The notes beneath the pieces are model-generated. The model was not told the origin of the DNA. It saw only the letters and a program-made list of their open reading frames with translations, and made no database searches. Source: Trypanosoma brucei (lineage: Eukaryota). From it: DNA of 64,000 bases. The stretch's first letter is position 1, and each line of letters opens with the position of its first letter. The stretch covers positions 1,536,001 to 1,600,000 of the forward strand of contig CP000066.1 in assembly GCA_000002445.1 (NCBI GenBank), given 5' to 3'. Below are positions 44,707 through 64,000 of this stretch, piece after piece. The translations under genes were made by a program, and so were the position numbers.

Positions 44707-45873
44707 ATGGCAATCAAATCACGAGGAGTTAAAGTTGTAATTATAGTTTTTATTGCCGTGTATGTGTTAACAATTACAAATGTTCTCATTAGTTTACATC
44801 GTTTCCACCAAAATTCCCAAAAGGAGGTGGTTAAAATTCAACGAGATGAACCATTACCAGATTTTGAGTACACCGAAGATGACAAAATGGCGTTAGAATT
44901 TGTAACACCGCATATTATAAAGAAATGGCGGAATCATAATTATCTCGTAGCACTCGGTATTCCTTCACCAGATAATGAAGAGCGACGGCGGCGGAGACAA
45001 CTTCAACGGGACACATGTTGGAAATATCCGGGAGTTGCCACCGTAGAAAATAATTTTGAAGGAGATATGCTCGTAGCATATGTATTGGCTCGTCATCCAC
45101 AATTTGATTACAAATATTCACCTGAATTGAAGGATGAAGCAAATAAATGGCGGGATGTCATTACGCTCCCCATAAATGAAGGTCGTGTCACAACTAAAAA
45201 GAAATTAGGAGAAGTTGCGCATTGGGGAATTGATGCGGAAATTGGTATGAGTCGAAAAATATATTTGTGGTTTGAATTGGGAGCGCGCCTTCTTCCGAAA
45301 ACAAGTTATTTCTCTAAAGGTGATGATGACGCGTTTTTCCATTCACCGCAGTACATTATTGATTTGAGAACTTTACCGCGTCGTGGTGTTTATTGGGCAT
45401 TTCATTGGCGTATAAATCCAGTGAGGCCTTTTATATTTGGCCGTGGCCTCTTGTACACCATGTCGAGAGATGTTGTTAATAAATTTGTAACATATGAACC
45501 GGTACGCCGCCTTGTGCATGTGCCATTCAGTTTTGATCGGCTTCTTGAATTTAAGCAATCCATTATGGAATATGAAGATGCCATGGTCGGTCATGCACTT
45601 TCTTATCAAAATCCAGAAGAATTATTATTTGTGAATGAAAGTTGCTGCCGCTTCATCATATTGAATGGTAATGAGTGCAAGCCACCGAAAAATAACAATT
45701 TTGTAGTAGTTCATGGTATTCAAGAAGAAGAATACGCAATAATGATGGAACGCTTTAAAAATTACACAACTCCCGTTCCTGTTCAATTTATTCCCTCAAA
45801 ATATGGTTGGATGGCCAATTGCACATTACCACCAGATCCACAACGGCGGCGGGATGCGGAATGGACGGCATAA
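44707..45873 (+). CDS. Type II membrane glycosyltransferase of the trypanosome UDP-Gal/UDP-GlcNAc-dependent (GT67-like) family.
   Basis: An N-terminal signal anchor 'VKVVIIVFIAVYVLTITNVLISL' follows a short cytoplasmic tail. A DxD-type motif appears as 'SKGDDDAFF'. The length (388 aa) and layout match the large T. brucei beta-1,3-glycosyltransferase family. The family assignment is from memory. Confidence 0.55.
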   Translation: MAIKSRGVKVVIIVFIAVYVLTITNVLISLHRFHQNSQKEVVKIQRDEPLPDFEYTEDDKMALEFVTPHIIKKWRNHNYLVALGIPSPDNEERRRRRQLQRDTCWKYPGVATVENNFEGDMLVAYVLARHPQFDYKYSPELKDEANKWRDVITLPINEGRVTTKKKLGEVAHWGIDAEIGMSRKIYLWFELGARLLPKTSYFSKGDDDAFFHSPQYIIDLRTLPRRGVYWAFHWRINPVRPFIFGRGLLYTMSRDVVNKFVTYEPVRRLVHVPFSFDRLLEFKQSIMEYEDAMVGHALSYQNPEELLFVNESCCRFIILNGNECKPPKNNNFVVVHGIQEEEYAIMMERFKNYTTPVPVQFIPSKYGWMANCTLPPDPQRRRDAEWTA

Positions 45874-47403: not shown

Positions 47404-48075
47404 ATGGCTAAGGTTGATACGCTGCTTGTATCAATTTTATTGCTCTTTTTGTGGCTATCAGTGGGTGTTTATGCAAACCAGCAGGACGGTTCAGCGGTTC
47501 CTATACCAAGCTGTGGTGAACGAGAGGAAGTTGACAATATTTTAAAATCTCTTGATAGAATTAAGCGCCTCAATTATGCGAAGGCAAACTGTACACTCGA
47601 GCGGTACGCCCCAAAAAATTTACATAAAGGGGGTAACTGTACGTTATGTGTCGACGGATTTTGGTGCGTAGACAAGCATATTTGCGTGGTTGATACTCTA
47701 CTGGTTTTTTTGGGTGTGCGTCCACCGCAGGCAGTTGAAGAAAAGAAAGAAAAGTTGGATCCGGATGACAGTTCCGCACCGAATGGAAACGATGAAAATC
47801 CCCTTCCCGCAAGTGATGCCCCCGCAGCCCCCAGCGGGCCCAAACAAAAGCAGCCGGATGATGCGATTAAAACACCAGGGGGAAATGTTAAGGACTCGTC
47901 ACCGGATGTTGTGCAGCATCAGATTTCAACAAAAGGAACTTCTAACACTAAAATTAACAGAAAAAATGAAGTTGCGGACACGGAACAACCTACGGACCAG
48001 CAAAGAAGCATATCTCGACGCCCTTTCACACTCATTCGTTCAATGGATGCAATACTTTTTTTTGTTGTTGTCTAG
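47404..48075 (+). CDS. Small (223 aa) secreted or surface protein. It has a signal peptide, a 6-Cys N-terminal module, a Pro/Ala/Asp-rich low-complexity region and a short hydrophobic C-terminus.
   Basis: The first ATG in the ORF is at 47404 (MAKVDTLLVSILLLFLWLSVGVYANQQ...), and its N-terminus is a typical signal peptide. The Cys pattern is 'CGERE...CTLERY...CTLCVDGFWCVDKHIC'. The C-terminus 'SMDAILFFVVV' is hydrophobic but short for a GPI signal. Confidence 0.45.
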   Translation: MAKVDTLLVSILLLFLWLSVGVYANQQDGSAVPIPSCGEREEVDNILKSLDRIKRLNYAKANCTLERYAPKNLHKGGNCTLCVDGFWCVDKHICVVDTLLVFLGVRPPQAVEEKKEKLDPDDSSAPNGNDENPLPASDAPAAPSGPKQKQPDDAIKTPGGNVKDSSPDVVQHQISTKGTSNTKINRKNEVADTEQPTDQQRSISRRPFTLIRSMDAILFFVVV

Positions 48076-49999: not shown

Positions 50000-51472
50000 A
50001 TGCGCATTGGGAAGTATTGCGTCGTTTTTCTGCTAGTGTGGACGCAAGCAACCAAGAGAAGCGTGGGAAAACCCACAAATATTATAAATCAGGAAGAATT
50101 TAAAGCATTATGTGCTTTCGTGAATTTGGCGAATGAATCGGTAGACTACGCAGGTCTCGAAGCCGAAATCAGGGACGCGGCAGCAGATATCGGGGCTATT
50201 TTTCTTGCGTCGCAGCAAGAAAGCATTTCGAAATTGAGGGAGCAAATTGAGATCTGGCGCGAGGTTGAAGCAACCAATAACGGAGGGAACAACCGAGGCA
50301 TTAAAAAGTGGAGTGTTTGGGAGGAAGCGAGAAGAAAGCTAATAGATGAAGGCGGAACAAAATATGTGCAATGGGTTGAATTGGGCTTGAGTGATGCTGA
50401 GAAGCAGAAGATAGAGGAAGCTATGGATGAGACAGTCAAATGCATGGCGGAGGAGAACGGCTTGTGGGACACTTTGCGGGAAATGCCAGTAAAAGGAAGT
50501 ATAACAAAAGCAATATTCGGATCCAGGGAAAGGCAAGTGCAGATTATGAAAGGACGCGGTAGCCGCGAAACCGCTTGTGGCAGGGGATTATTCCCTGGAG
50601 ACTGGGCGGGCACGGCATTGAGCGCTGACTTACTGTGCCTGTGCGCCGCTACGGAACGCAGGGCCGCCACCAACGAGGGTTGCTGCACAGGATGCGAGAC
50701 AGGGGGAAATGGCGTTGCTTGGGATCCAAGGGTGCATAGTGAGGAGAGGTGGAATTTGCTTAGAAGTAAATGTGAAAAGGTCAGCAGCGGTACTCCCCTT
50801 TCAAGTCGAGCGCTGTCGGTTGCGGAGAGTACATTTTTCAACCAACTGAAGATCTCAAAAGGGTCAACATCAGGAAGACCAACGCTACTGGGTAAATTTG
50901 GAACTAGCTTTTCCGTGGGTTGTACCGGGGAAATCACCGAGAAAGAGGGACGTTGCGTTCGGTATAGCCACAGCCATGTTGACAGAAATAATCCAGCGCT
51001 ACCCTGGCTTACAAACTTAAGGGAGGCGGCAAATGCAGTAGATCAGTTGAATGCAGTTGATACAAAGCTCAAACATCTACGCGTTGGTATAGCCACCTTC
51101 CACACGAAGCATGTTGATTTTAAATCGCGTGAAAAAGGAAACGGCGGCGACCCTATTCTGGGAAGCGGTGGCGTAGAGGGTGAAGTTAACACCAATGAGT
51201 CAACGAAGGCGAACACAAACGATGGTAGAGCAAAAAAGGCTGGTGAAAGCAAAAGAACACCTGTCGACAACATTTCACATAAATGCGAAGGTTATAGGCA
51301 GGGAAAAACATGCAAAAGTCGAAAAGTGGAAACGGAATGTGACTGGGAGGAGGGTACATGCGTTGGCTCTGCCAGTGAGCCAGTCACTTCGCCTCTGAGG
51401 CAAAGACCACCTACTTCAGGGAAGGTAAACTCCATTAGATGCTCACTGAGTTTGTTTTTAATACTATTATAG
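50000..51472 (+). CDS. VSG-like (variant surface glycoprotein or VSG-related) gene, 490 aa, apparently intact.
   Basis: A signal peptide 'MRIGKYCVVFLLVWTQATKRSVG' is present. The N-terminal domain has the 'ALCAFVNLA' motif and a B-type-like Cys cluster 'LLCLCAATERRAATNEGCCTGCETGG'. The C-terminal domain has four Cys ('CEGYRQGKTCKSRKVETECDWEEGTCVGS'), resembling VSG C-terminal domains of the 'CKWEG-TCKDS' type. A hydrophobic tail 'IRCSLSLFLILL' is compatible with a GPI signal. The size is typical for a VSG. I could not find the canonical VSG 3'UTR 16-mer (TGATATATTTTAACAC) downstream. Confidence 0.55.
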   Translation: MRIGKYCVVFLLVWTQATKRSVGKPTNIINQEEFKALCAFVNLANESVDYAGLEAEIRDAAADIGAIFLASQQESISKLREQIEIWREVEATNNGGNNRGIKKWSVWEEARRKLIDEGGTKYVQWVELGLSDAEKQKIEEAMDETVKCMAEENGLWDTLREMPVKGSITKAIFGSRERQVQIMKGRGSRETACGRGLFPGDWAGTALSADLLCLCAATERRAATNEGCCTGCETGGNGVAWDPRVHSEERWNLLRSKCEKVSSGTPLSSRALSVAESTFFNQLKISKGSTSGRPTLLGKFGTSFSVGCTGEITEKEGRCVRYSHSHVDRNNPALPWLTNLREAANAVDQLNAVDTKLKHLRVGIATFHTKHVDFKSREKGNGGDPILGSGGVEGEVNTNESTKANTNDGRAKKAGESKRTPVDNISHKCEGYRQGKTCKSRKVETECDWEEGTCVGSASEPVTSPLRQRPPTSGKVNSIRCSLSLFLILL

Positions 51473-54400
51473 TCATCGTGAGCGAAACCATTATTAAGAA
51501 TGGTTTAGGTTATAAAATGGTTTAGCTAACTATTTTATTCGATCTACAGGGGGAGATATGTGTTCTTACTTTATTATGTAGGACTGCTTTTGGTGGTTAT
51601 CATGATTATGTTCTTTCAGTATGTAGGCTGCCGCTGGAACCCACACATTTAAGCTGATCATGCCTCCTATGGAAGGTTTTATGGGGGTAAAATACAGGGT
51701 GTTGTGGACTAGTTTTACCTCGAAAGGGGAATGTACATCAAGAATCCGGGGGCTGTCCTTCATATCTATTTGCTCCCTGTGTGCAACTCGTTTGCTGTGA
51801 AGAAGAGTGGGGCGTTTATTCACTATTTTGTTTTTTTCTTTGCGACAACGTACTCCGAGTACTAAGGATGGACATCCACTGAGAAGTTATACGCTGGCTG
51901 GTATATGCTTTTGGTGGAGTCTATGTATACCTTGGCGCATAGAGATGGCGAAGTTGGGAAGGTGAGCGCGTTGTGTTGTCTTTGGTAAGCTAGTATACTG
52001 CTGTAAAGCGAGTTTTAATGACGGGGGAGTATTTACGGTGCGGGTATTATGTTGCTTGGATTGCATTCTTAGGAAAATTTGGACGGAGAAGTGTTCAGTT
52101 GGGAAGATTATTACCACGAAATGGAGTGGCATTCGCGAGTGTGTGCAGGAAAATATATCCTCGTAGAAAGTGTGCTGATGGGACAGTACATTTTCGTGGG
52201 GAATATAAGGCTCTTTACCACAGTATTTTTGTTGCGGGGATAACTGGTTACTCACTGGCACCAAGTGCCGCCAATCTCAAGCTCATGTCGTTGTTGGTGT
52301 TGCCTCTTTCAGTGAGAGGCAACGGCACAGACGAAGGTACATCAGCGGGTAGTGTTGCACAGCGCATAGGTTAAGGGGAATTCATTTCGGTAAGGAATTC
52401 CGCTAAACACCGGCAGCTCGAAAATTACGCACCGCTAAAGTGATAGTTGAAGCTTCAACCGCCTAAAGTTACCGTTGGAAAACAAAAATGCAATATGTGC
52501 AACAGAGGTCTTGTTTGCACATGGAAATGGGCCTGTCTTACCGTTGAACTTTCCGGCGATTTTGGAGTCACACGGCTGCCAGCCCGTCAGGTGTGCAACC
52601 AAAAGGCAACCTCACTCTGAAGAATCCCACTGCCGCATTTGCAGGTGGTAAAACTGCAATGGATAGCGGTACGGAACCGACTTCAGAAGAACGAACTGCG
52701 AGGCATAACAGCGGGGGAACGGGCACCAAGGGAGAAAGAAGCAAGGTGGTTTTCCGTGCCGCAGGGTATGTCGCTCCAGGGAAACAGGTATCTAGTTCGA
52801 CTCCTGCAAACTCTCTTAACAGCGGCGCTTGTTCCTCGCCCCATATCACCACTGACCGAGGAGCAAGCATTTTCCACTCCTCATCATACCCAATCTATCA
52901 TACAACGAATCCGATTGTTATGTCCTTTTTATACCATATAAATATATCTTCTCTTTCAAAGCAGTAAAGTGCTGGAGGAGGTCAATACGGAAACATTTAT
53001 AATTATAAAAATTGTTTCTACGAATCATTTTTCTAGAGGAAGTGCATAGAGATGCCAAATTACCCTAACCCGAACCAATTGAAGAATGTTTGAATGTGCT
53101 GAAGCACTCTCTCAAAAGATGGAAGAGGAGGTACGACATTGCCCAAATAATACAACTCCGTGTTGAAAGTAGTGAATTGAAGTACAGGCACGGATCAACA
53201 TTAGCTCGCATCAGTTTTCACGCTACAAACTAAGTCTTTTAATTGGGTTAGTGCAGCAGCCGAGATAAGCGCTGAGGTTATCAACTTGATGGAAGTAGTG
53301 TCTGTCACAAACAAACCTTCGAGGTGCGGAGCAGAGGTCTTATCGGCACGTATATTACAAATTTCGGGGAGAAAGGCTTAGGGAAAAGTAAGATTATCGT
53401 ACAAACACCCGTCAGTTGGGGGTTCGTCAAGAAAATATAAGTCAGATAGATTATAAATTAGGAATCGGGATGTATACATTTTTTTACATGATAAATTTTG
53501 GAGCAGCGGAAGTAAAGGTTTCCATGGGTAGAAGATGGGGATGTGCACGGCTAAGGTGTTGGTGTTTTTGATACTGGCATCCAGGTAGCAAGTGTAAAGG
53601 GTGCTAATTGTGATGAGTTGAAGATTCTTCGTGGTTTCCTGAGGCCTGTTTGGGGGTATTTAAATGTGGTTGACGAAGGAAGCAAGGAACGCGTTACAGG
53701 CACTTGAAACCAAGGAATCGAGTCCTTACTGGGGCGATATCCCATGGCACCGATAGGTTGTAGAACAGAAAGCACACATTCAATCAGCGACGAATGCAGC
53801 ATTTGTTCCGTGTGCGAGGAAAAAGTGAGCAACGTACTTAAAATAAACCCCGAAAACCCTTTGTCAACACCCAGGACAAAGCAAAGCGACTTGAGCAACC
53901 ACAAAGAATTGACGAATTTGGTCGAACAAGCCTCTGAGCTGTACATGAAAAACTCACTGAAAGTCAGAGTGACGGCAGAAGATTTTCAAAAGGATGCAGA
54001 GGAAATACTCTACGGTATAGAAGACAAAAAAAAGTCCAAAAGGTATGGAACTAAGAAGGGAGCAGGCTTGCGGTAAAGAAGTATCAAGCTGAAACAACTA
54101 CTTTCGGCGTGCGCTAACTATAGACCTGATGTGCTTGTGCTTTCCCCCAGAACTACCTTTAGCTGCCGCGTTGTGTTGCGATAGGTGCAACATGGAACCA
54201 AACACCGCGACCTGGGACGTAGAAACCTCCACCAAGATAACCGATTTTATGATCGAAAAATGTGGAGATTGCCCGCTTCCATAAGTGAGTTTTGTGAAAA
54301 CTATGAAGAAAAACTTCGTGAAGCTAAATGATCTCGGAAAGTTTAGGAAGAAATCCAGAGGAAAGGCTTTCTGTGCTGTAGGTTGGGACAATAGGGAAGA

Positions 54401-56951
54401 TATGCAGAGTTGCTCGGGAAGAACAAAGTCGGCAACCTGTGCGCAGTACAACACAAGCGAAGGAGGTCTTGCCTGGGGAGAGGTGTCTTAGCTAAAAAAA
54501 AAAACTAATGAAGTTACAAAATCAATTGCGAGATTTAAGACAATATGGAACTCAACGGAAAATGCAAGAGGCAACAACTAAACTGGAAAGGCAGATTGAT
54601 ACTTTTTCGAACAGGGAGGTTGACGAGGAACTGGAGCACATTCAACTGGTACAAAAACATGAGCCACCCGCAAAGCATCAGCATCCGTCTCCACGCGTGG
54701 AAGCAACGGAAGGTAATGACAAACAAGTCATGACCGAAAACTTAAACAGCAAGCCTAACGATAGAGTTAGGGCACATGCTGCGGAAGGAAACTCGGGGAA
54801 TCCTGTCTTGCAACAGGGAAATGAGTCCAAAGAAATCCCACATCAGCCACAGCGACCAAAAAGCGGCACCCAAATTGTTCCGCCTCTTAAGGTTCTTTTG
54901 CTTTTCCTGTAGAACAATACACAGGTTTTTATGTTCATAGTGATAACAGTTTGAACAACCAAATTCTCTACGGAATTCCGGAAGCTGACTTTCGATTGGA
55001 ACCACTATCCTATTTCCCCTTTCTGGAAAAGAACTACTGGTAACGAACAGAGCACACTCAGGCTCTACAGGATCAAACTCACTGGGAAAACTATTGTCAC
55101 TAAGGGTGAAAAAAAAAAATCGTGGAGCACCATCAGTGTACCTAATGGTTTCATTTGAGTGGCAAATAAATAAAATCAAAACATGAAGGAATGGGAAAGT
55201 AGTTCATTTCGGCGGAGTACGCAGAAGGTGCGAGGCTGTTGCGCTGTTAAAATAATATCTGAAACTCCACCAGAGTAGGCAACACTCGTCTTGAGAGAAA
55301 AATAACGGACATGTCACAAAAACAAATGAAAATTTCAGTCTATTGCCTATTAATCTTTTTATGATGGGTTGAATGTGAAACTACCGTAGATTTTTTCGTT
55401 CTGACTGACTGTAGGAGACAAAAGCACTTCAAATGCGCTCTCCGGCAATAACGGCCAGCGACGAGGTGAAGTGGAAGCTACAGTGAGTGACAGGTGCGTG
55501 AGAAGCGTTAACGTAAATGCCTTCGTTCACCTGTGTACAAAATGTTAAAACGTGACAAAGGAAGCGACCTCAGAAAAATACGTAAAAGTCGCGAGAACAT
55601 ATGGATCGACAAGGCAAAAAAAAACAATCGCTCAAATCCGAGATGGTGGAGGAGAGATCGAGTATTATATCGATAAAAACCACATCAGCGGTGCACACCA
55701 AAATAACGAGTGAAAGGCACACGTGAGCACAAAAGTGCGCGAGATCTAACCTAATTTAGCGGATAACCGCAGTGCTACTGCGAAAAGTAAAAGGGGACAC
55801 CTCACACCAAGAAAACAACTGTGTGTTTCGTGCAAGTTTAGAAGGGAAAATGGTAAGACCGTGACACAAAGGATCAGAGAAGTTTTCACAGTATTTTTAA
55901 AAATATGCACTCACAAAAGCTGCCGCACAAATCAGTGAGTTGCACCATAAAACCTCAAAAATATCCGCCGATAACACAACCGTGCGGTTAACCACCCGTA
56001 AGAAACAATGGACTGTGTCGCACCGGCGAAAAGGAGGTAAACAAGTTCAGAAATATGAAAAAAAAAAAGTGTATGTGACGTGCGACTGTTACATCCCTTA
56101 CAGAAGAATCAATACCCGTGACTACATTATGAACCCGGAAGTTGTATTAAGCGTCAGCCGGACGACTAAACCAGGGTGTGGCATGCATCACTAACCACAC
56201 ACGCATAAACACAAAGGGAAAGATTGCAAAATTATATCACAAGCCCCAAGGAAACACTCGAATACCATTGATCAACCAAAAACGAAGGAATGTCTAATAA
56301 CATGCAGACAGCCTTCACCAGATGGGATGTTGAATGCAGAGAGCGTTGGTTGGGAGTATATGGCATGAAAATCGTACGGACGAGAAGCAATCAAAAGTTA
56401 AATGTCACCCTTGGTGGTTCGGACAAACAGTAGTTAAGAAGTGGTAACAAGCACAAAGCGCAAAGAACAAAAGGAAGGGAGAATGATGCCAAAAAGTGAA
56501 GATGACGACCGCCGCTGAAGAGCGTGTGTATGTGACCTACAACCGGAGAAAAAAAAGGAGTCTAGCAAAAAAAAAAACGCAGCAGAGGATGCCGAGTCGA
56601 GCTAAGTTAAGGAGGGGGAAATAAAACTTGAAGCCAAAAGTACAAACCCGGAGAAGAGTAAATGTTCCCACACACTACCGGGTGATCGATCCGGAGTTAG
56701 CACCTAATTTCCGCTAACTCTTTCTCAAGTTATTACCATATTTTTACGAATATCGTTGTTTTAGCTTGCGAAAATTGTCCCGAAAGTCATCACTAGAACA
56801 AGAGTATTTTCCAGCTGCAACACCCCAAACTGTTGAGAAAAAAAAAGTTGCACCGTCTCACTTATAATAAAAAAATATCAAAAAATATATTGGAATTCAA
56901 TCAAGAACACCACTTTTCTTCTATTTATGTTTCCTTTTAAGAAGAGGAGCG

Positions 56952-57944
56952 ATGGAGAACAAATATTTAGTGTGGTGCATGTTTTTTTGTTTAACGGTTG
57001 TGGGGGGCAAAGCTAATGCAGTGAAAACAACGCTAAAGAAAGAAACGAATTGCCACACAACTGTTAAAGCACTGTTCAACAAACGTGAAAACTGTCATGA
57101 TCTGGCCTCCGATGCAACGAAAATAAATGAGGATGTTGACATCGGAACAGATGCAGATAGATGGACTGCTTGCACATGGTTAGAATATGATAAGAGGCGT
57201 ACGGAGACACAATGCATATTGAGGTTTAACAACACATATGGAGAGAAATTAGTATGCACCTACGAAACAAAGGGCAATCGCCAAGACCTAAGTTGCAAAC
57301 CAGAGGGTCGTTGCGAAGACGCTCGCGAGCGGTACCTTTTAGGGGAAGAAGGATGTCCGAAGCCTGCACCACGTGAAGAACCAAAAAGAAACAAAACCGA
57401 AAGGTGTCTTGATGAGGTTTATGGGTCATTCAGCGGTGACCAGGAGTGTGCGAAACTTAAAATAGGAAGCGAGGTCGCCGAGCAAATTATATTCAGGGAG
57501 AACGGAGATGACAAAACACCAGAATGTATAGAAGCAAGTGGCCCCCCAGAGTCGAAAGTGGTTGGAGAAGCATGCGTAATAAAGTTGCGAACCGAGCCAC
57601 ACCCATCAGAATATATTTGCAAAATGGAGGGTTCTGGTGAGGAAAGGAAAATAAAATGCACAAGAGAAACATCGAAAACAGTTCCTCAACCTACGACCAC
57701 AAGGAAGAGACGAGGCAGTACTGGATCCATGCGCAAAAGAAGTGACGACGGTGGTAACACTGAGGTCACCCTGAAAGAAGATAAAGACAAAACACAAGAT
57801 GAGGATGAAGGCCAAAAAGAAGAAAGAAAAGAAGAAAGCGGTGAAGAAACTGGTACAGCAAAAGCTCGAATCAAAAGCAAAACTTATTGGAAATCAAATA
57901 ATCCTATTATCATGCTTTTAACACTTTCGTTATTGTTGCTTTAA
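56952..57944 (+). CDS. Cys-rich surface protein with a signal peptide and a C-terminal GPI-anchor-like signal. It is the divergent first member (330 aa) of the tandem family that follows.
   Basis: It is about 45-50% identical to the downstream copies. Conserved blocks are 'TQCILRFNNTYGEKLVCTYETKGNRQDLSC' (versus 'TQCILKFENAEGNRIACTYETEGGQGNVSC') and 'PESKVVGEACVIKLRTEPHPSEYICKMEGSGEERKIKC'. The C-terminus 'WKSNNPIIMLLTLSLLLL' is identical. Confidence 0.7.
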   Translation: MENKYLVWCMFFCLTVVGGKANAVKTTLKKETNCHTTVKALFNKRENCHDLASDATKINEDVDIGTDADRWTACTWLEYDKRRTETQCILRFNNTYGEKLVCTYETKGNRQDLSCKPEGRCEDARERYLLGEEGCPKPAPREEPKRNKTERCLDEVYGSFSGDQECAKLKIGSEVAEQIIFRENGDDKTPECIEASGPPESKVVGEACVIKLRTEPHPSEYICKMEGSGEERKIKCTRETSKTVPQPTTTRKRRGSTGSMRKRSDDGGNTEVTLKEDKDKTQDEDEGQKEERKEESGEETGTAKARIKSKTYWKSNNPIIMLLTLSLLLL

Positions 57945-58767
57945 TACTGTTTAATAATAAACGGTAATGTAAACTGTTTGGAAGAAAGTATGCTTTTAAC
58001 GGAGAAGGGAAGTGAGTGTATCAAAACATTTTTCTTGTAAGACATACATTAAGGGAACATTTTTATGTTTTTTTTTTGTCACGCGTCACTGCTGTAAAAA
58101 AAACTTCTTGCGCTCAAGTTGTATCGAAAGTATTGAATTTTCAACGATGTTGTTCGGTGGGGAAGGTAAGGGGAATAGGATATATAGTTGTGTCGGGGAC
58201 GGCGTTCTGTTTGTTGAAAGGGGTAAAGAGAGGAAAAAACCCTACACCGGGTGAAAGTAACTGACTGATGAAGTTCGTTTGGATCGATAGACAAGTGGAA
58301 CTCGCCGCAAAAAGGTTGTAACAGCATTTAACCGGCACATGCGGCTTAGCGTTTTAGGTTGAGAAATGCACGTATAAAGGCACGGATGCTCAGGAAATAC
58401 CCTTATTTCTGATAACATAATTGGACGCTAAGCTAGAGAAGGCACAACACCAGATTCGAGAATACAACAGAAAAATGACGGGCGATGGCACCGACGAAGA
58501 GGAACAATTGAAGCGGGTCGCTGAAATCGATAACATCAATGCCCACGGCAGCCTCCTCTCGACGCGCGGACAAAACAAGAAAAAAAAATGCAGCTTCAGA
58601 AAAAAAAAAAAATGTTTCTTTGGGAAACCACTTGAAACTGTTGAGGAAAAGAGGGTTTGCCACGCCCAGCCGCTAATGATAATGTGAAATGGAAATTTAC
58701 AGTATCCATTTAACCTACAATATCATGATTCCTACACCTTTATCATTCTTCCTTTAGCGAAAACAAA

Positions 58768-59829
58768 ATGAGGAAACAACATGTCATATACTACGTATTT
58801 TTCTGCTTAGGAGCCATAGGAAGCAGAGGAGAGACAGAACCAATAACAATACAAAAAGGAACGGAGTGCCACAAAGCATTGGAAACAGCGTTCACCACGC
58901 CCAAAAACTGTGAGAATGTAAGCACAGCGATAAGCGAAATGCCTGAAAATGTTAGCATTGAAACATTCCCGGGGGCATGGACCGTGTGTCAATTCATGGA
59001 AAACGAAAAAGAAAGCACAGTCACGCAATGCATTTTGAAGTTCGAAAACGCAGAGGGAAATCGAATAGCGTGCACCTACGAAACCGAGGGCGGACAAGGA
59101 AACGTAAGCTGCACACAGGAAGTGGATGCTCCGGTGGCTTATCATCCATACTGTGAGGGAGCCGAATACGATTATACTTATCATGACGAAAGCCACGGTC
59201 ATGGGAGCGGGGGCTATGAGCGGCGTTGTCCCGAGCCGGGTCCACGTCCTGCGCCACTGAATGAAGAAGCTCACAGGTGTGTTGCCGACGTCCTTGTTGC
59301 ATTTGGTGGTCACCATGAATGTGCAAAACTCTACGGCACAGATCCGGCACTCGATCCTGAAGATGTCATCTTCGGCGAGAAAGGAGATGACAAACCAAAA
59401 TGCACGGAGGCAGATCGACCCGAGGTGTCCACATTGGTTGGAGAAGCATGCGAGGTAAAATTGCGGACCAAACCAGAACCAGACGAATACTTGTGTAAGG
59501 TAGAAACCTCTAACGGTAAAAGAAAAATAAAGTGTACCCCCAAAACACCAAAAACAATTCCTCAACAAGCGGACACAGTAAAGAAACCAGATACCACTGA
59601 ATCCATGCAGAAAAAAGCTGACGATGGTGGTAAAACTGAGGTAACACCAGAAGTAAAAGATGGGCAAAAAGATGAAAAGGGTGGGAAAGAAAGGCAAGAA
59701 AAGCAAAAAATGGAAAATAATACTGGAAAAAGCAATGAAGCAGCGACAAACACTAAAACGCAGGCTTCTTCTTGGAAATCAAATAATCCTATTATCATGT
59801 TTTTAACACTTTCTTTATTGTTGCTTTAG
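58768..59829 (+). CDS. Cys-rich, probably GPI-anchored surface protein, 353 aa (tandem copy 2).
   Basis: A signal peptide 'MRKQHVIYYVFFCLGAIGSRG' is followed by two internally homologous Cys modules. Module A ends 'TQCILKFENAEGNRIACTYETEGGQGNVSC', and module B ends 'EACEVKLRTKPEPDEYLCKVETSNGKRKIKC'. A Lys/Glu/Thr-rich stalk and a hydrophobic tail 'SWKSNNPIIMFLTLSLLLL' follow. N-glycosylation sequons are NVS x2 and NNT. Confidence 0.75.
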   Translation: MRKQHVIYYVFFCLGAIGSRGETEPITIQKGTECHKALETAFTTPKNCENVSTAISEMPENVSIETFPGAWTVCQFMENEKESTVTQCILKFENAEGNRIACTYETEGGQGNVSCTQEVDAPVAYHPYCEGAEYDYTYHDESHGHGSGGYERRCPEPGPRPAPLNEEAHRCVADVLVAFGGHHECAKLYGTDPALDPEDVIFGEKGDDKPKCTEADRPEVSTLVGEACEVKLRTKPEPDEYLCKVETSNGKRKIKCTPKTPKTIPQQADTVKKPDTTESMQKKADDGGKTEVTPEVKDGQKDEKGGKERQEKQKMENNTGKSNEAATNTKTQASSWKSNNPIIMFLTLSLLLL

Positions 59830-60645
59830 TATCATTTAATAAACGGTAATGTAGACTGTTTTGAAGAAAGTATGCTTTTAACGGAGAAGGGAAGTGAGTG
59901 TATCAAAACATTTTTCTTGACAGACGTACATTAAGGGAACATTTTTATTGTTTACTTGCCATATTGCACTGCTAAAAAACTTCTCGTGCTGGAGTTGCGT
60001 GCGAAGTATTAGATTTCTTCACCGATTCTTTTTTGTAGCGAAGGTAAGGGGAATAGGATATGTAGTTGTGTCGGGGACGGCGTTCTGTTTGTTGAAAGGG
60101 ATAGCAGGAAGAGAAAACTCTACCCCGGGTGAAAGCAACTGACTTGTGCAGTTCGTTCGGATCGATAGACAGGTGGAAATCGCCGCAAAAAGGTTGTAAC
60201 AGCATTTGATCGGCACATGTGGTGTAGCGTTTTGGGTTGAGAAATGCACGCATAAAGGCACGGATGCTCAGGAAATACCCTTATTTCTGATAACATAATT
60301 GGACGCTAAGCTAGAGAAGGCACAACACCAGATTCGAGAATACAACAGAAAAATGACGGGCGATGGCACCGACGAAGAGGAACAATTGAAGCGGGTCGCT
60401 GAAATCGATAACATCAATGCCCACGGCAGCCTCCTCTCGACGCGCGGACAAAACAAGAAAAAAAAATGCAGCTTCAGAAAAAAAAAAAAATGTTTCTTTG
60501 GGAAACCACTTGAAACTGTTGAGGAAAAGAGGGTTTGCCACGCCCAGCCGCTAATGATAATGTGAAATGGAAATTTACAGTATCCATTTAACCTACAATA
60601 TCATGATTCCTACACCTTTATCATTCTTCCTTTAGCGAAAACAAA

Positions 60646-61707
60646 ATGAGGAAACAACATGTCATATACTACGTATTTTTCTGCTTAGGAGCCATAGGAA
60701 GCAGAGGAGAGACAGAACCAATAACAATACAAAAAGGAACGGAGTGCCACAAAGCATTGGAAACAGCGTTCACCACGCCCAAAAACTGTGAGAATGTAAG
60801 CACAGCGATAAGCGAAATGCCTGAAAATGTTAGCATTGAAACATTCCCGGGGGCATGGACCGTGTGCCAATTCATGGAAAACGAAAAAGAAAGCACAGTC
60901 ACGCAATGCATTTTGAAGTTCGAAAACGCAGAGGGAAATCGAATAGCGTGCACCTACGAAACCGAGGGCGGACAAGGAAACGTAAGCTGCACACAGGAAG
61001 TGGATGCTCCGGTGGCTTATCATCCATACTGTGAGGGAGCCGAATACGATTATACTTATCATGACGAAAGCCACGGTCATGGGAGCGGGGGCTATGAGCG
61101 GCGTTGTCCCGAGCCGGGTCCACGTCCTGCGCCACTGAATGAAGAAGCTCACAGGTGTGTTGCCGACGTCCTTGTTGCATTTGGTGGTCACCATGAATGT
61201 GCAAAACTCTACGGCACAGATCCGGCACTCGATCCTGAAGATGTCATCTTCGGCGAGAAAGGAGATGACAAACCAAAATGCACGGAGGCAGATCGACCCG
61301 AGGTGTCCACATTGGTTGGAGAAGCATGCGAGGTAAAATTGCGGACCAAACCAGAACCAGACGAATACTTGTGTAAGGTAGAAACCTCTAACGGTAAAAG
61401 AAAAATAAAGTGTACCCCCAAAACACCAAAAACAATTCCTCAACAAGCGGACACAGTAAAGAAACCAGATACCACTGAATCCATGCAGAAAAAAGCTGAC
61501 GATGGTGGTAAAACTGAGGTAACACCAGAAGTAAAAGATGGGCAAAAAGATGAAAAGGGTGGGAAAGAAAGGCAAGAAAAGCAAAAAATGGAAAATAATA
61601 CTGGAAAAAGCAATGAAGCAGCGACAAACACTAAAACGCAGGCTTCTTCTTGGAAATCAAATAATCCTATTATCATGTTTTTAACACTTTCTTTATTGTT
61701 GCTTTAG
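60646..61707 (+). CDS. Cys-rich, probably GPI-anchored surface protein, 353 aa (tandem copy 3, identical to copy 2).
   Basis: The protein is identical to the 58768-59829 product. The complete 1878-bp unit, 5' and 3' flanks included, appears identical at the nucleotide level. Confidence 0.75.
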   Translation: MRKQHVIYYVFFCLGAIGSRGETEPITIQKGTECHKALETAFTTPKNCENVSTAISEMPENVSIETFPGAWTVCQFMENEKESTVTQCILKFENAEGNRIACTYETEGGQGNVSCTQEVDAPVAYHPYCEGAEYDYTYHDESHGHGSGGYERRCPEPGPRPAPLNEEAHRCVADVLVAFGGHHECAKLYGTDPALDPEDVIFGEKGDDKPKCTEADRPEVSTLVGEACEVKLRTKPEPDEYLCKVETSNGKRKIKCTPKTPKTIPQQADTVKKPDTTESMQKKADDGGKTEVTPEVKDGQKDEKGGKERQEKQKMENNTGKSNEAATNTKTQASSWKSNNPIIMFLTLSLLLL

Positions 61708-62457
61708 TATCATTTAATAAACGGTAATGTAGACTGTTTTGAAGAAAGTATGCTTTTAACGGAGAAGGGAAGTGAGTGTATCAAAACATTTTTCTTGACA
61801 GACGTACATTAAGGGAACATTTTTATTGTTTACTTGCCATATTGCACTGCTAAAAAACTTCTCGTGCTGGAGTTGCGTGCGAAGTATTAGATTTCTTCAC
61901 CGATTCTTTTTTGTAGCGAAGGTAAGGGGAATAGGATATGTAGTTGTGTCGGGGACGGCGTTCTGTTTGTTGAAAGGGATAGCAGGAAGAGAAAACTCTA
62001 CCCCGGGTGAAAGCAACTGACTTGTGCAGTTCGTTCGGATCGATAGACAGGTGGAAATCGCCGCAAAAAGGTTGTAACAGCATTTGATCGGCACATGTGG
62101 TGTAGCGTTTTGGGTTGAGAAATGCACGCATAAAGGCACGGATGCTCAGGAAATACCCTTATTTCTGATAACATAATTGTACGCTAAGCTAGAGAAGGCA
62201 CAACACCAGATTCGAGAATACAACAGAAAAGTGAAGACGGGTGATTTAAGCGGGTCACTGAAATCAAGATCATTAATACAGACGGCAGCATCAGTGGAGG
62301 GGGAAATATTTTTTTTAATACTTGAAACTGTTGAGGAAAAGAGGGTTTGCCACGCCCAGCCGCTAATGATAATGTGAAATGGAAATTTACAGTATCCATT
62401 TAACCTACAATATCATGATTCCTACACCTTTATCATTCTTCCTTTAGCGAAAACAAA

Positions 62458-63522
62458 ATGAGGAAACAACATGTCATATACTACGTATTTTTCTGCTTAG
62501 GAGCCATAGGAAGCAGAGGAGAGACAGAACCAATAACAATACAAAAAGGAACGGAGTGCCACAAAGCATTGGAAACAGCGTTCACCACGCCCAAAAACTG
62601 TGAGAATGTAAGCACAGCGATAAGCGAAATGCCTGAAAATGTTAGCATTGAAACATTCCCGGGGGCATGGACCGTGTGTCAATTCATGGAAAACGAAAAA
62701 GAAAGCACAGTCACGCAATGCATTTTGAAGTTCGAAAACGCAGAGGGAAATCGAATAGCGTGCACCTACGAAACCGAGGGCGGACAAGGAAACGTAAGCT
62801 GCACACAGGAAGTGGATGCTCCGGTGGCTTATCACCCACACTGTGGGGAACATGGAAGTGACCATGGTTATGATAACGGCTATGATGGTTATAATGGCGT
62901 GGCGTATGGTGAACTGGGTTGTCCCGAGCCTGGTCCACCTCCTGCCCAACCGAACGATGAAGCTCACAGGTGCATTGCCGACGTTTTCGCTGCATTTAGT
63001 GGCCACCTTCCATGTGCAAAATTCTACGGCACAGATCAGGCATTCGGTCCTAAGGAAGTCGTCTTCGGCGAGAACGGAAATGAAAAACCAGAATGTGCAG
63101 AAGGAAGCGAACCCCCGGAATCCAAGGTGGTTGGGGAAACATGTGAAGTAAAATTGCGGACAAAAAAACAACCAGAAGAATATGTATGTAAGGTAGAAAC
63201 CTCTAACGGTAAAAGAAAAATAAAGTGTACCCCCAAAACACCAAAAACAATTCCTCAACAAGCGGACACAGTAAAGAAACCAGATACCACTGAATCCATG
63301 CAGAAAAAAGCTGACGATGGTGGTAAAACTGAGGTAACACCAGAAGTAAAAGATGGGCAAAAAGATGAAAAGGGTGGGAAAGAAAGGCAAGAAAAGCAAA
63401 AAATGGAAAATAATACTGGAAAAAGCAATGAAGCAGCGACAAACACTAAAACGCAGGCTTCTTCTTGGAAATCAAATAATCCTATTATCATGTTTTTAAC
63501 ACTTTCTTTATTGTTGCTTTAG
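62458..63522 (+). CDS. Cys-rich, probably GPI-anchored surface protein, 354 aa (tandem copy 4, mosaic).
   Basis: Residues 1 to about 125 and about 245 to the end are identical to copies 2 and 3. The central module B region (about nt 62835-63195) is diverged: 'HCGEHGSDHGYDNGYDGYNGVAYGELGCPEPGPPPAQPNDEAHRCIADVFAAFSGHLPCAKFYGTDQAFGPKEVVFGENGNEKPECAEGSEPPESKVVGETCEVKLRTKKQPEEY'. In places it is closer to copy 1. Confidence 0.75.
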   Translation: MRKQHVIYYVFFCLGAIGSRGETEPITIQKGTECHKALETAFTTPKNCENVSTAISEMPENVSIETFPGAWTVCQFMENEKESTVTQCILKFENAEGNRIACTYETEGGQGNVSCTQEVDAPVAYHPHCGEHGSDHGYDNGYDGYNGVAYGELGCPEPGPPPAQPNDEAHRCIADVFAAFSGHLPCAKFYGTDQAFGPKEVVFGENGNEKPECAEGSEPPESKVVGETCEVKLRTKKQPEEYVCKVETSNGKRKIKCTPKTPKTIPQQADTVKKPDTTESMQKKADDGGKTEVTPEVKDGQKDEKGGKERQEKQKMENNTGKSNEAATNTKTQASSWKSNNPIIMFLTLSLLLL

Positions 63523-64000
63523 TATCATTTAATAAACGGTAATGTAAACTGTTTGGAAGAAAGCATGCTTTTAACGGAGAAGGGAAGTGAGTGTATCAAA
63601 ACATTTTTCTTGACAGACGTACATTAAGGGAACATTTTTATTGTTTACTTGCCATATTGCACTGCTAAAAAACTTCTCGTGCTGGAGTTGCGTGCGAAGT
63701 ATTAGATTTCTTCACCGATTCTTTTTTGTAGCGAAGGTAAGGGGAATAGGATATGTAGTTGTGTCGGGGACGGCGTTCTGTTTGTTGAAAGGGATAGCAG
63801 GAAGAGAAAACTCTACCCCGGGTGAAAGCAACTGACTTGTGCAGTTCGTTCGGATCGATAGACAGGTGGAAATCGCCGCAAAAAGGTTGTAACAGCATTT
63901 GATCGGCACATGTGGTGTAGCGTTTTGGGTTGAGAAATGCACGCATAAAGGCACGGATGCTCAGGAAATACCCTTATTTCTGATAACATAATTGGACGCT

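What the first reader, a model, noticed from the sequence alone, without database searches (positions are those of the whole stretch)
56952..64000. Tandem array of an unassigned Cys-rich, GPI-anchored surface-protein family next to a VSG-like gene
At least four head-to-tail genes (330, 353, 353 and 354 aa) share the same layout. Each encodes a cleavable signal peptide and two internally homologous Cys-containing modules. Both modules end in the pattern C-x-[VIL]-K-[LF]-x(8-10)-Y-x-C-K/T-x-E-x(5-8)-[VI]-x-C. An extended Lys/Glu/Thr-rich stalk, probably unstructured, follows, and then a hydrophobic GPI-type tail ('SWKSNNPIIM[FL]LTLSLLLL'). The array runs off the end of the window. It is the last feature of the transcription unit as seen here. 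About 5 kb upstream lie a VSG-like gene, a signal-peptide protein and a glycosyltransferase. This is the signature of a trypanosome surface-coat or host-interface locus. I cannot place the family among the named families I remember (procyclins, BARP/GARP, ISG65/75, ESAG6/7, HpHbR, PSSA-2). The two-module layout plus a disordered stalk resembles extended receptor-like molecules that reach through the VSG coat. I rank this as the best candidate in the window for something under-described.
Basis: partly seen in the sequence, partly recalled or inferred. Interest (0 to 1): 0.75.

Follow-up and report, generated by a model that had tools for sequence, protein, structure and literature searches.

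The report
Known trypanosome surface-gene array (Fam6)
This is the already catalogued Trypanosoma brucei-specific 'Fam6' tandem array (Tb927.3.5690-5730), which encodes predicted GPI-anchored, cysteine-rich proteins whose mRNA is higher in bloodstream forms; it is real and correctly described, but its fold and function are still untested.

Summary
Four head-to-tail genes (330, 353, 353 and 354 aa) lie at the stated coordinates. Each has an N-terminal signal-type segment, two 6-Cys modules, a polar stalk of about 75 aa, and a hydrophobic GPI-type tail.

The window is T. brucei brucei TREU927 chromosome 3, 1,536,001-1,600,000. The genes are Tb927.3.5690, 5700, 5710 and 5720. A fifth copy (5730) lies just beyond the window.

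The family is not unassigned. It is Fam6 of the 2013 cell-surface phylome: signal peptide yes, GPI yes, five copies, T. brucei only. [quoted passage not shown]

Microarray data show 12-16-fold higher mRNA in bloodstream forms, peaking in stumpy forms, than in stationary procyclics.

An exhaustive profile search of 1.84 billion proteins found no relative outside the family. Pfam and PDB sequence searches found nothing.

AlphaFold models are low confidence. They suggest one helix plus a four-stranded sheet per module (cystatin/NTF2-like topology), not a three-helix bundle.

I found no experimental localisation or function. Verdict: already known, still uncharacterised, modest interest.

The parts
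56952..57944 (+). Tb927.3.5690, the divergent first Fam6 copy (330 aa). It is the orthologue of the single T. b. gambiense gene Tbg972.3.6170.
   Evidence: ORF. Accession AAZ10600/XP_844159; 95% identical to gambiense CBH10295. 41% identical to the other copies. Chromosome start 1592952. Orthology statement from Jackson 2010.
58768..59829 (+). Tb927.3.5700, Fam6 copy 2 (353 aa). This is the example member of Fam6.
   Evidence: ORF. P0001 = AAZ10601/10602/10604. Chromosome start 1594768. Listed in Jackson 2013 Table S1.
58768..58830 (+). Predicted signal peptide of copy 2 (aa 1-21: MRKQHVIYYVFFCLGAIGSRG).
   Evidence: N-terminal hydrophobic window. Signal peptide = yes in Jackson 2013 Table S1.
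58849..59127 (+). Module 1 of copy 2 (aa 28-120; Cys 34, 48, 74, 88, 102, 115).
   Evidence: AF2 secondary structure: helix 33-43 followed by four strands.
59128..59238 (+). Inter-module linker (aa 121-157) with 2 Cys. It is H/Y/G/D-rich, about 20 aa longer than in Tb927.3.5690, and has the highest dN/dS of any segment (0.75, copies 2 vs 4).
   Evidence: Alignment. dN/dS by segment.
59239..59553 (+). Module 2 of copy 2 (aa 158-262; Cys 171, 185, 212, 228, 243, 256).
   Evidence: AF2 module model: one helix plus a 4-stranded antiparallel sheet, pLDDT 47.
59554..59766 (+). Polar K/T/E/Q-rich stalk (aa 263-333), probably disordered.
   Evidence: Composition. Modelled as coil with pLDDT ~32.
59767..59829 (+). 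GPI-addition-type C-terminal signal (WKSNNPIIMFLTLSLLLL) plus the stop codon.
   Evidence: C-terminal hydrophobic window and conserved tail. GPI = yes in Jackson 2013 Table S1.
60646..61707 (+). Tb927.3.5710, Fam6 copy 3 (353 aa). The protein is identical to copy 2.
   Evidence: The two repeat units differ at 33 of 1878 nt, all outside the CDS.
62458..63522 (+). Tb927.3.5720, Fam6 copy 4 (354 aa). It is a mosaic: codons 1-120 and the stalk and GPI-signal codons (copy-2 numbering 261-353) are identical to copies 2 and 3, while the linker and module 2 have diverged.
   Evidence: ORF. P0002 = AAZ10603. Chromosome start 1598458. Central segment dS 0.37-0.48, dN 0.18-0.36.
63523..64000 (+). Start of the intergenic spacer leading to the fifth copy (Tb927.3.5730), whose ATG is predicted at about 64270-64336, outside the window.
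   Evidence: The repeat continues to the window end. A third identical protein accession, AAZ10604, exists. Five-member orthogroup. Predicted start.
57955..58071 (+). A 117-nt segment just after the stop codon, 94-95% identical in all four copies (also at 59837-59953, 61715-61831 and 63530-63646). It is either a candidate 3'UTR element or the product of gene conversion.
   Evidence: Repeat family D6. Unit 1 versus unit 2 align at 81% from 57489 onward.
50000..51472 (+). Context: Tb927.3.5680, VSG-related gene (VR9).
   Evidence: Pfam VSG_B, E=3.6e-71. Names. Bloodstream-form-upregulated 6.1-fold.
47404..48075 (+). Context: Tb927.3.5670, which by OrthoFinder grouping with the Fam5 example gene Tb927.3.600 is a Fam5-type predicted signal-peptide/GPI protein.
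   Evidence: Name. Same orthogroup as Tb927.3.600, 3.2550-2580 and 10.5700/5710. Fam5 example ID Tb927.3.600.
44707..45873 (+). Context: UDP-Gal/UDP-GlcNAc-dependent glycosyltransferase (by gene order Tb927.3.5660).
   Evidence: Exact look-up gives AAZ10597, so named. No Pfam hit.

Best explanation
SHOWN. The feature is the Fam6 gene family of Trypanosoma brucei brucei TREU927 (Tb927.3.5690-5730, chromosome 3). Four of its five tandem copies lie in the window.
- The family is restricted to T. brucei-group parasites.
- The first, divergent copy is the ancestral gene. It is the only copy in T. b. gambiense and T. evansi.
- The other copies arose by recent tandem duplication in the TREU927 lineage and are being homogenised in patches by gene conversion. 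Copy 4 is identical to copies 2 and 3 at both ends and diverged in the middle.
- The coding sequences are under purifying selection, and all 14 mature Cys are conserved.
- mRNA is 12-16-fold higher in bloodstream forms, peaking in stumpy forms, than in stationary procyclic forms.

INFERRED. Each protein enters the ER through a cleaved signal peptide. It folds into two disulfide-bonded modules of about 90 aa that descend from an internal duplication. Each module probably has one helix packed on a four-stranded antiparallel sheet. The hydrophobic C-terminus is exchanged for a GPI anchor.

The protein is then displayed on the bloodstream-form plasma membrane or flagellar pocket, with the modules held away from the membrane by a flexible polar stalk of about 75 residues. 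The most likely role is an invariant ligand-binding or host-interface glycoprotein. Extra copies would add dosage and a second module-2 variant. The ligand is unknown.
For: Identity:
- Exact protein matches to TREU927 accessions.
- Chromosome coordinates of 5690, 5700 and 5720 map to window positions with one constant offset.
- Fam6 entry in Jackson 2013 Table S1: example Tb927.3.5700, signal peptide yes, GPI yes, no membrane-spanning helix, 5/0/0 copies in T. brucei/T. congolense/T. vivax. The text describes Fam4-7 as tandem, beside strand-switch regions and bloodstream-biased.

Restriction to T. brucei:
- hmmsearch of an ectodomain profile against 1.84 billion representatives found only the family itself.
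- Word-indexed searches found only TREU927 and gambiense proteins.
- OrthoFinder group of five genes, with no T. congolense, T. vivax or T. cruzi member.

History: single copy in gambiense and T. evansi.

Mosaicism and selection: dS=0 in codons 1-120 and 261-353 but 0.37-0.48 in between, for copies 2 versus 4. dN/dS is 0.39 for copy 1 versus copy 2, and 0.13-0.23 in module 2.

Expression: Jensen 2009 supplements.

Architecture: hydropathy, Cys positions and composition. Internal duplication. Same helix-then-strands order in both modules, and a coil stalk.
Against: - I found no protein-level evidence. The genes are absent from the held supplements of the Lister 427 bloodstream surface proteome. 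In the spatial-proteomics supplements they appear only in the orthogroup table. Some of those files were truncated when stored, and strain 427 may differ in copy number.
- GPI anchoring and surface location are predictions only.
- The deposited gambiense orthologue carries a +1 frameshift that removes the GPI signal.
- Both structural models are low confidence (pLDDT 41.5 and 46.9).
- Copy number varies among strains, so the extra copies are dispensable.
Confidence: 0.65

Rival explanations
1. The proteins are secreted or shed cysteine-rich proteins, not stably GPI-anchored surface proteins.
For: Jackson 2010 called them 'cysteine-rich secretory proteins'. The deposited T. b. gambiense orthologue ends in the +1 frame (KKAVKK...LLSCF) and lacks the hydrophobic GPI-type tail. 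They were not found in a surface-labelled proteome.
Against: All four TREU927 copies keep an identical GPI-type tail. Those codons are nearly identical even between copies that are otherwise 41% identical at the protein level (dS 0.09 against ~1.1). GPI is predicted in Jackson 2013. NCBI flags the gambiense protein as 'LOW QUALITY PROTEIN', and the shift lies in an A/G-rich tract, so it may be a sequencing error.
Confidence: 0.12
2. The extra copies are a strain-specific, functionally neutral duplication. The family may make little or no protein and have no important role.
For: There is one copy in gambiense and T. evansi and five in TREU927. I found no proteomic detection in the files I could search. 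Carnes 2015 says the biological significance of such variability is unknown.
Against: dN/dS is below 1. All 14 mature Cys are conserved between copies with dS ~1.1. mRNA is developmentally regulated at substantial signal levels. The ancestral copy is 95% conserved in gambiense.
Confidence: 0.12
3. Each module is a cystatin-like domain, and the protein is a surface-tethered tandem cysteine-peptidase inhibitor, comparable in layout to fetuin or kininogen.
Confidence: 0.05
4. Fam6 is a diverged derivative of VSG, ISG or another three-helix-bundle receptor-type protein, like Fam1, ESAG6/7 or HpHbR.
For: It lies next to a VSG-related gene and a probable VSG-like pseudogene remnant. Jackson 2013 shows that new T. 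brucei surface genes such as Fam1 are repeatedly derived from VSG.
Against: No Pfam VSG or ISG hit. BLASTP against the neighbouring VSG-related protein gives E>0.2. The exhaustive profile search found no VSG or other protein. The predicted secondary structure is one short helix plus four or five strands per module, not long helices. Jackson 2013 reports 'no similarity to known proteins' for Fam4-7.
Confidence: 0.03

Closest known systems
Fam6 of the African-trypanosome cell-surface phylome (Jackson et al. 2013; example Tb927.3.5700)
   Same: [quoted passage not shown]
   Different: Nothing differs. This analysis adds the two-module internal duplication, the mosaic copy 4, the frameshift in the gambiense model and a tentative alpha+beta topology.
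Fam1 (Tb927.6.1310-1390), a T. brucei-specific GPI-anchored family
   Same: A five-copy polymorphic tandem array in TREU927. Its divergent 5'-most copy is the only one present in T. b. gambiense. [quoted passage not shown]
   Different: [quoted passage not shown] Fam6 has no detectable VSG similarity and I found no localisation data for it.
Invariant surface glycoproteins ISG65/ISG75 and other bloodstream-stage invariant surface proteins
   Same: Bloodstream-enriched, invariant, Cys-containing ectodomains encoded by tandem arrays. They share the presumed setting beneath or within the VSG coat.
   Different: From my own knowledge, ISGs are type I transmembrane proteins with helical-bundle ectodomains and are conserved across African trypanosomes. 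Fam6 has a GPI-type tail, no internal membrane-spanning segment, predicted alpha+beta modules, and is restricted to T. brucei.
Cystatin / NTF2-like alpha+beta roll folds, including tandem cystatin-domain proteins such as fetuin and kininogen
   Different: There is no sequence-level match. The inhibitory motifs are incomplete. The models are low confidence. This is a resemblance of a weak model, not membership.
Apicomplexan 6-Cys (s48/45) and SRS surface antigens
   Same: A GPI-anchored parasite surface protein built from tandem six-cysteine modules, in lineage-specific expanded arrays.
   Different: No Pfam match was listed for any Fam6 protein or module. From my own knowledge, those domains are larger all-beta sandwiches, whereas each Fam6 module is about 90 aa with a predicted N-terminal helix. 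The similarity is analogy only.

Membership tests
Fam6 (cell-surface phylome, Jackson 2013) | Sequence identity with the listed member Tb927.3.5700 and its paralogues | tested here: met
   Window ORFs equal TREU927 proteins AAZ10600-10603. Gene starts 1592952, 1594768 and 1598458 map to 56952, 58768 and 62458 with one constant offset. Table S1 names Tb927.3.5700.
Fam6 (cell-surface phylome, Jackson 2013) | Predicted signal peptide and GPI signal, with no membrane-spanning helix | tested here: met
   Only N-terminal and extreme C-terminal hydrophobic windows are present. This is a crude test. The SignalP and GPI predictions are taken from Table S1.
Fam6 (cell-surface phylome, Jackson 2013) | Restricted to T. 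brucei (0 copies in T. congolense and T. vivax) | tested here: met
   hmmsearch of 1.84 billion representatives returned only the family. Orthogroup counts are 5/0/0/0.
Fam6 (cell-surface phylome, Jackson 2013) | Tandem array of five copies next to a strand-switch region | tested here: inconclusive
   Four copies and the start of a fifth unit lie in the window. The fifth copy and the strand-switch region lie outside it. The next gene, Tb927.3.5740, is still on the + strand.
VSG / VSG-related / VSG-derived families (Fam0, Fam1, Fam9, ESAG6/7) | Match to the VSG N-terminal domain profiles (Pfam VSG_B or the a-type domain) | tested here: not met
   No such hit at E<=1 (full length) or E<=10 (modules). 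The neighbouring gene Tb927.3.5680 scores 3.6e-71 in the same scan.
VSG / HpHbR / GARP-type three-helix-bundle surface proteins | Long antiparallel helical bundle | tested here: inconclusive
   AF2 models show one helix of 11-23 residues plus four or five strands per module, with no long helices. However, pLDDT is only 41-47.
Cystatin superfamily | Match to the cystatin sequence profile | tested here: not met
   No Pfam hit for any module at E<=10. No PDB sequence hit at E<=10.
Cystatin superfamily | Inhibitory motifs: QxVxG in hairpin 1 and PW in hairpin 2 | tested here: not met
   Module 2 has S-[KT]-[VL]-V-G at the predicted hairpin 1 (no Gln). Module 1 has a deletion there. Hairpin 2 is SNGK/EGGQ with no PW.
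Cystatin superfamily | Fold: a helix wrapped by a 4-5-stranded antiparallel sheet | tested here: inconclusive
Apicomplexan 6-Cys (s48/45) / SRS | Match to the s48/45 or SRS domain profiles | tested here: not met
   No Pfam hit of any such family was listed.
ISG65/75 family | Type I transmembrane topology and a match to the ISG profile | tested here: not met
   No internal hydrophobic segment; the C-terminus ends in a 12-residue hydrophobic tail with no cytoplasmic domain. No Pfam ISG hit.

The most novel reading that the evidence does not exclude
Fam6 could be a fold class not yet documented on the bloodstream-form surface: two tandem, disulfide-locked cystatin/NTF2-like alpha+beta modules on a flexible GPI-anchored stalk. 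That would differ from the helical bundles that, to my knowledge, dominate the characterised African-trypanosome surface proteins. It could act as a T. brucei-specific binder of a host ligand, or as a tethered peptidase inhibitor. Its role might concern stumpy forms and transmission, since its mRNA peaks in stumpy forms.
Probability: 0.12. Interest if true: 0.6.

Novelty: already known. Interest (0 to 1): 0.25.

Why it matters
As a discovery it adds little. The array and the family have been in the literature since 2007-2013 and carry a family number.

As a target it is still open. Fam6 is one of a few T. brucei-specific, bloodstream-biased, predicted GPI-anchored families for which I found no localisation, structure or function. 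It has no detectable relative among 1.84 billion proteins.

If the tentative non-helical module fold were confirmed and a ligand found, it would widen the known structural repertoire of the trypanosome host interface. The strain-level copy-number variation (1 versus 5) and the patchwork gene conversion also make it a compact example of how surface genes evolve.

Tried and rejected
- Pfam scans of the full proteins and of single modules gave only sub-threshold noise such as Hid1, DUF6037 and Phage_blade.
- A PDB sequence search with the ectodomain profile gave no hit at E<=10.
- A third word-indexed search, using the merged module alignment, returned nothing at all. It did not even recover the family itself, so it is uninformative.
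- The look-up of encoding contigs for P0001 and P0002, meant to reach DNA beyond the window, found nothing on record.
- The afdb50 fold library was unavailable.
- Foldseek with the full-length model gave no hit at E<=0.001. The top hits (Pur-alpha and others) cover about 50 residues and are not meaningful.
- The bacterial promoter/terminator scan is irrelevant for a trypanosome and was a wasted call.
- The long antisense ORFs inside the coding sequences (299-300 aa, TTG starts) were rejected as genes. They mirror the sense ORFs and have no ATG.
- A weak BLASTP match between Tb927.3.5670 and Fam6 (E=0.03-0.05) was rejected as chance, given the number of comparisons made.
- Literature searches for Fam6, alternative gene IDs, and AlphaFold-based surveys found no functional study.
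- The RIT-seq paper (Alsford 2011) is not held.

Full report

Yes. The ORF listing finds + strand ORFs at 56952-57944 (330 aa), 58768-59829 (353 aa), 60646-61707 (353 aa) and 62458-63522 (354 aa). The repeat finder shows head-to-tail DNA units with start-to-start spacing of 1878, 1878 and 1815 bp, running up to base 64000. Copies 2 and 3 encode identical proteins. Their 1878-bp units differ at 33 positions, all outside the coding sequence.

Each protein has just two hydrophobic segments: residues ~5-17 and the last ~12 residues. All four end in WKSNNPIIM[FL]LTLSLLLL. The mature proteins carry 14 Cys, and all of them are conserved.

The region between the last Cys and the tail is about 75 residues. 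It is rich in K, T, E, Q, D and G, and AlphaFold2 models it as coil with pLDDT ~32.

**2. The two-module claim**

The Cys spacing repeats: 14/26/14/14/13 in module 1 and 14/27/16/15/13 in module 2. Sequence similarity between the modules is weak:
- BLASTP gives E=4.7.
- hhalign aligns 87 columns with all six Cys in register, 23% identity, E=0.013.
- MAFFT of both modules from all paralogues keeps six Cys, one Phe and one Glu invariant.
- Smith-Waterman scores exceed shuffles by z=2.2-6.6. The best pair beat 2000 of 2000 shuffles, and 1999 of 2000 when the Cys were held fixed.

AlphaFold2 gives both modules the same order of elements, a helix followed by four or five strands. I accept an ancient internal duplication as likely.

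A relaxed version matches both modules in all copies.

**3. What is it?**

The proteins are exact matches to T. brucei brucei TREU927 entries on a 1,653,225-bp contig. The upstream 223-aa gene is named Tb927.3.5670.

Supplementary tables of Jensen et al. 2009 give chromosome-3 starts of 1592952 for Tb927.3.5690, 1594768 for 5700 and 1598458 for 5720. These equal the window coordinates plus 1,536,000. The window is therefore chromosome 3, 1,536,001-1,600,000, and the four genes are Tb927.3.5690, 5700, 5710 and 5720.

A third accession with the 353-aa sequence (AAZ10604) and a five-gene orthogroup show that Tb927.3.5730 lies just past the window end. Its predicted ATG is at about 64270-64336. 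Tb927.3.5740 follows on the same strand.

**4. It is already catalogued**

- Jackson 2007 lists the array as T. brucei-only array no. 20.
- Jackson et al. [quoted passage not shown] It is homologous to a single T. b. gambiense gene (Tbg972.3.6170). The first gene is the orthologue, and the others are paralogues unique to T. b. brucei.
- Carnes et al. 2015 report that the duplication is absent from T. evansi STIB805 and from gambiense.
- Jackson et al. 2013 (cell-surface phylome), Table S1, lists family 6 with example Tb927.3.5700: signal peptide yes, GPI yes, no membrane-spanning helix, five copies in T. brucei and none in T. congolense or T. vivax. The text says Fam4-7 have 'no similarity to known proteins', lie next to strand-switch regions, are typically tandem, and are expressed preferentially in bloodstream forms.

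**5. Expression**

Jensen 2009 microarray signals are given below in the order cultured bloodstream / slender / stumpy / log procyclic / stationary procyclic.

| Gene | Signals | Max/min |
|---|---|---|
| Tb927.3.5690 | 3962 / 7380 / 7967 / 912 / 560 | 14-fold |
| Tb927.3.5700 (+5710, 5730) | 6280 / 8311 / 9500 / 2404 / 582 | 16-fold |
| Tb927.3.5720 | 3853 / 5758 / 5966 / 1311 / 474 | 12.6-fold |

The neighbours 5660, 5670 and 5680 are also bloodstream-upregulated.

I found no protein-level evidence. The IDs are absent from the held supplements of the Gadelha 2015 surface proteome. In the Moloney 2023 spatial-proteome supplements they occur only in the orthogroup table. Both studies used other strains, and some of the files were truncated when stored.

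**6. Relatives and fold**

- A profile of the ectodomain, searched with HMMER against 1.84 billion representative proteins, found only the family itself.
- Pfam found nothing.
- A PDB sequence search found nothing.
- BLASTP against the neighbouring VSG-related protein found nothing.

AlphaFold2 had only four or five sequences to work with and is low confidence: pLDDT 41.5 for the full-length protein and 46.9 for module 2. The module model has one helix on a four-stranded antiparallel sheet.

This is a lead about topology, not a fold assignment. Module 2 has S-[KT]-[VL]-V-G at the predicted first hairpin, which recalls the cystatin QxVxG loop. However, the Gln and the PW motif are absent, and module 1 lacks the loop. 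Nothing supports a three-helix bundle.

**7. Evolution of the array**

Copy 1 is 41% identical in protein to the other copies. Its 3' part, from 57489 through the intergenic spacer, still aligns with unit 2 at 81% nucleotide identity.

Copy 4 is a mosaic. Codons 1-120 and 261-353 are identical to those of copies 2 and 3. The linker and module 2 have dS 0.37-0.48 and dN 0.18-0.36. This is the signature of patchy gene conversion.

dN/dS is below 1 throughout: 0.39 overall for copy 1 versus copy 2, and 0.13-0.23 in module 2. The genes are therefore constrained, and there is no sign of positive selection.

The GPI-signal codons and the first 117 nt after the stop codon are nearly identical in all four copies.

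**8. Most likely mechanism**

Shown:
- identity and copy structure;
- restriction to T. brucei;
- purifying selection;
- a bloodstream and stumpy mRNA bias.

Inferred:
- ER entry, folding of two disulfide-locked modules, and GPI anchoring;
- display on the bloodstream-form surface or flagellar pocket on a flexible stalk;
- a ligand-binding or host-interface role, with the extra copies giving dosage and a second module-2 variant.

Rivals:
- a secreted protein rather than an anchored one. The deposited gambiense orthologue is frameshifted into the +1 frame and loses the tail, but NCBI flags it as low quality;
- a neutral, strain-specific duplication with little protein output;
- a tethered cystatin-like inhibitor;
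- a diverged helical-bundle receptor.

**9. Verdict**

The surface-protein reading is plausible and agrees with published predictions. The 'unassigned family' claim is wrong. Novelty is 'already known'. Interest is modest (0.25), because function and fold remain open and no relative exists anywhere else.

Noticed in passing
window 47404-48075 (+): Tb927.3.5670 has the same overall layout as Fam6 (signal peptide, a small 6-Cys domain, a polar stalk, a hydrophobic tail) but an unrelated sequence. OrthoFinder groups it with Tb927.3.600, 3.2550-2580 and 10.5700/5710, which corresponds to Fam5 of the phylome. The locus therefore strings together a glycosyltransferase, Fam5, a VSG-related gene and Fam6.
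   Followed up: partly
window 53744-54912 (+): There are broken ORFs between the VSG-related gene and the array. One gives a weak tblastn match to the VSG-related protein at 54057-54218 (E=0.002). Another contains a Cys-rich 'CLC...LCC' stretch (54129-54284). A 134-aa ORF ends in a hydrophobic tail. This is probably a decayed VSG-related pseudogene.
   Followed up: partly
window 57820-57921 (+), compared with T. b. gambiense CBH10295 (P0004): The C-terminus of the gambiense orthologue (KKAVKKLVQQKLESKAKLIGNQIILLSCF) is exactly the +1 frame of the TREU927 sequence. A 1-nt shift in an A/G-rich tract therefore removes the GPI signal in the deposited gambiense model. NCBI flags the entry as 'LOW QUALITY PROTEIN'. 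Whether the shift is real or a sequencing error is unknown.
   Followed up: partly
window 62458-63522 compared with 58768-59829: Copy 4 (Tb927.3.5720) is identical to copies 2 and 3 over codons 1-120 and 261-353 but strongly diverged in between (dS 0.37-0.48). This is a clean gene-conversion mosaic. Its module 2 shares some residues with copy 1 (PPESKVVGE).
   Followed up: yes
window 57955-58071, 59837-59953, 61715-61831, 63530-63646: A 117-nt segment just after each stop codon is 94-95% identical in all four copies, including the otherwise divergent first copy. It is either a candidate stage-regulatory 3'UTR element or simply a conversion tract.
   Followed up: no
window 59128-59238 and 62818-62931 (+): The inter-module linker of the TREU927-specific paralogues contains a His/Tyr/Gly/Asp-rich insertion of about 20 aa (for example YHDESHGHGSGGY) that is absent from Tb927.3.5690. 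It has the highest dN/dS of any segment (0.75, copies 2 vs 4). Metal binding is conceivable but untested.
   Followed up: no
window 44707-45873 (+): This 388-aa glycosyltransferase has no Pfam hit even at E<=0.1. Sources name it a UDP-Gal/UDP-GlcNAc-dependent glycosyltransferase, and the T. equiperdum copy in the same 90%-identity cluster is named GlcNAc-transferase I. It appears to be a highly divergent enzyme.
   Followed up: partly
window 42000-64000: GC content falls from 0.42-0.53 to 0.355-0.39 between 42 and 50 kb. AT skew turns strongly positive (+0.2 to +0.29) from 54 kb onward. This coincides with the switch from conserved housekeeping genes (RPN1, SPT16, TrpRS, a kinase) to the T. 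brucei-specific surface-gene cluster.
   Followed up: no
window 58807-59706, 60685-61584, 62497-63399 (-): Long antisense ORFs (299-300 aa, TTG starts) mirror each 353/354-aa gene. I judged them to be by-products of the sense-strand composition, not genes.
   Followed up: partly
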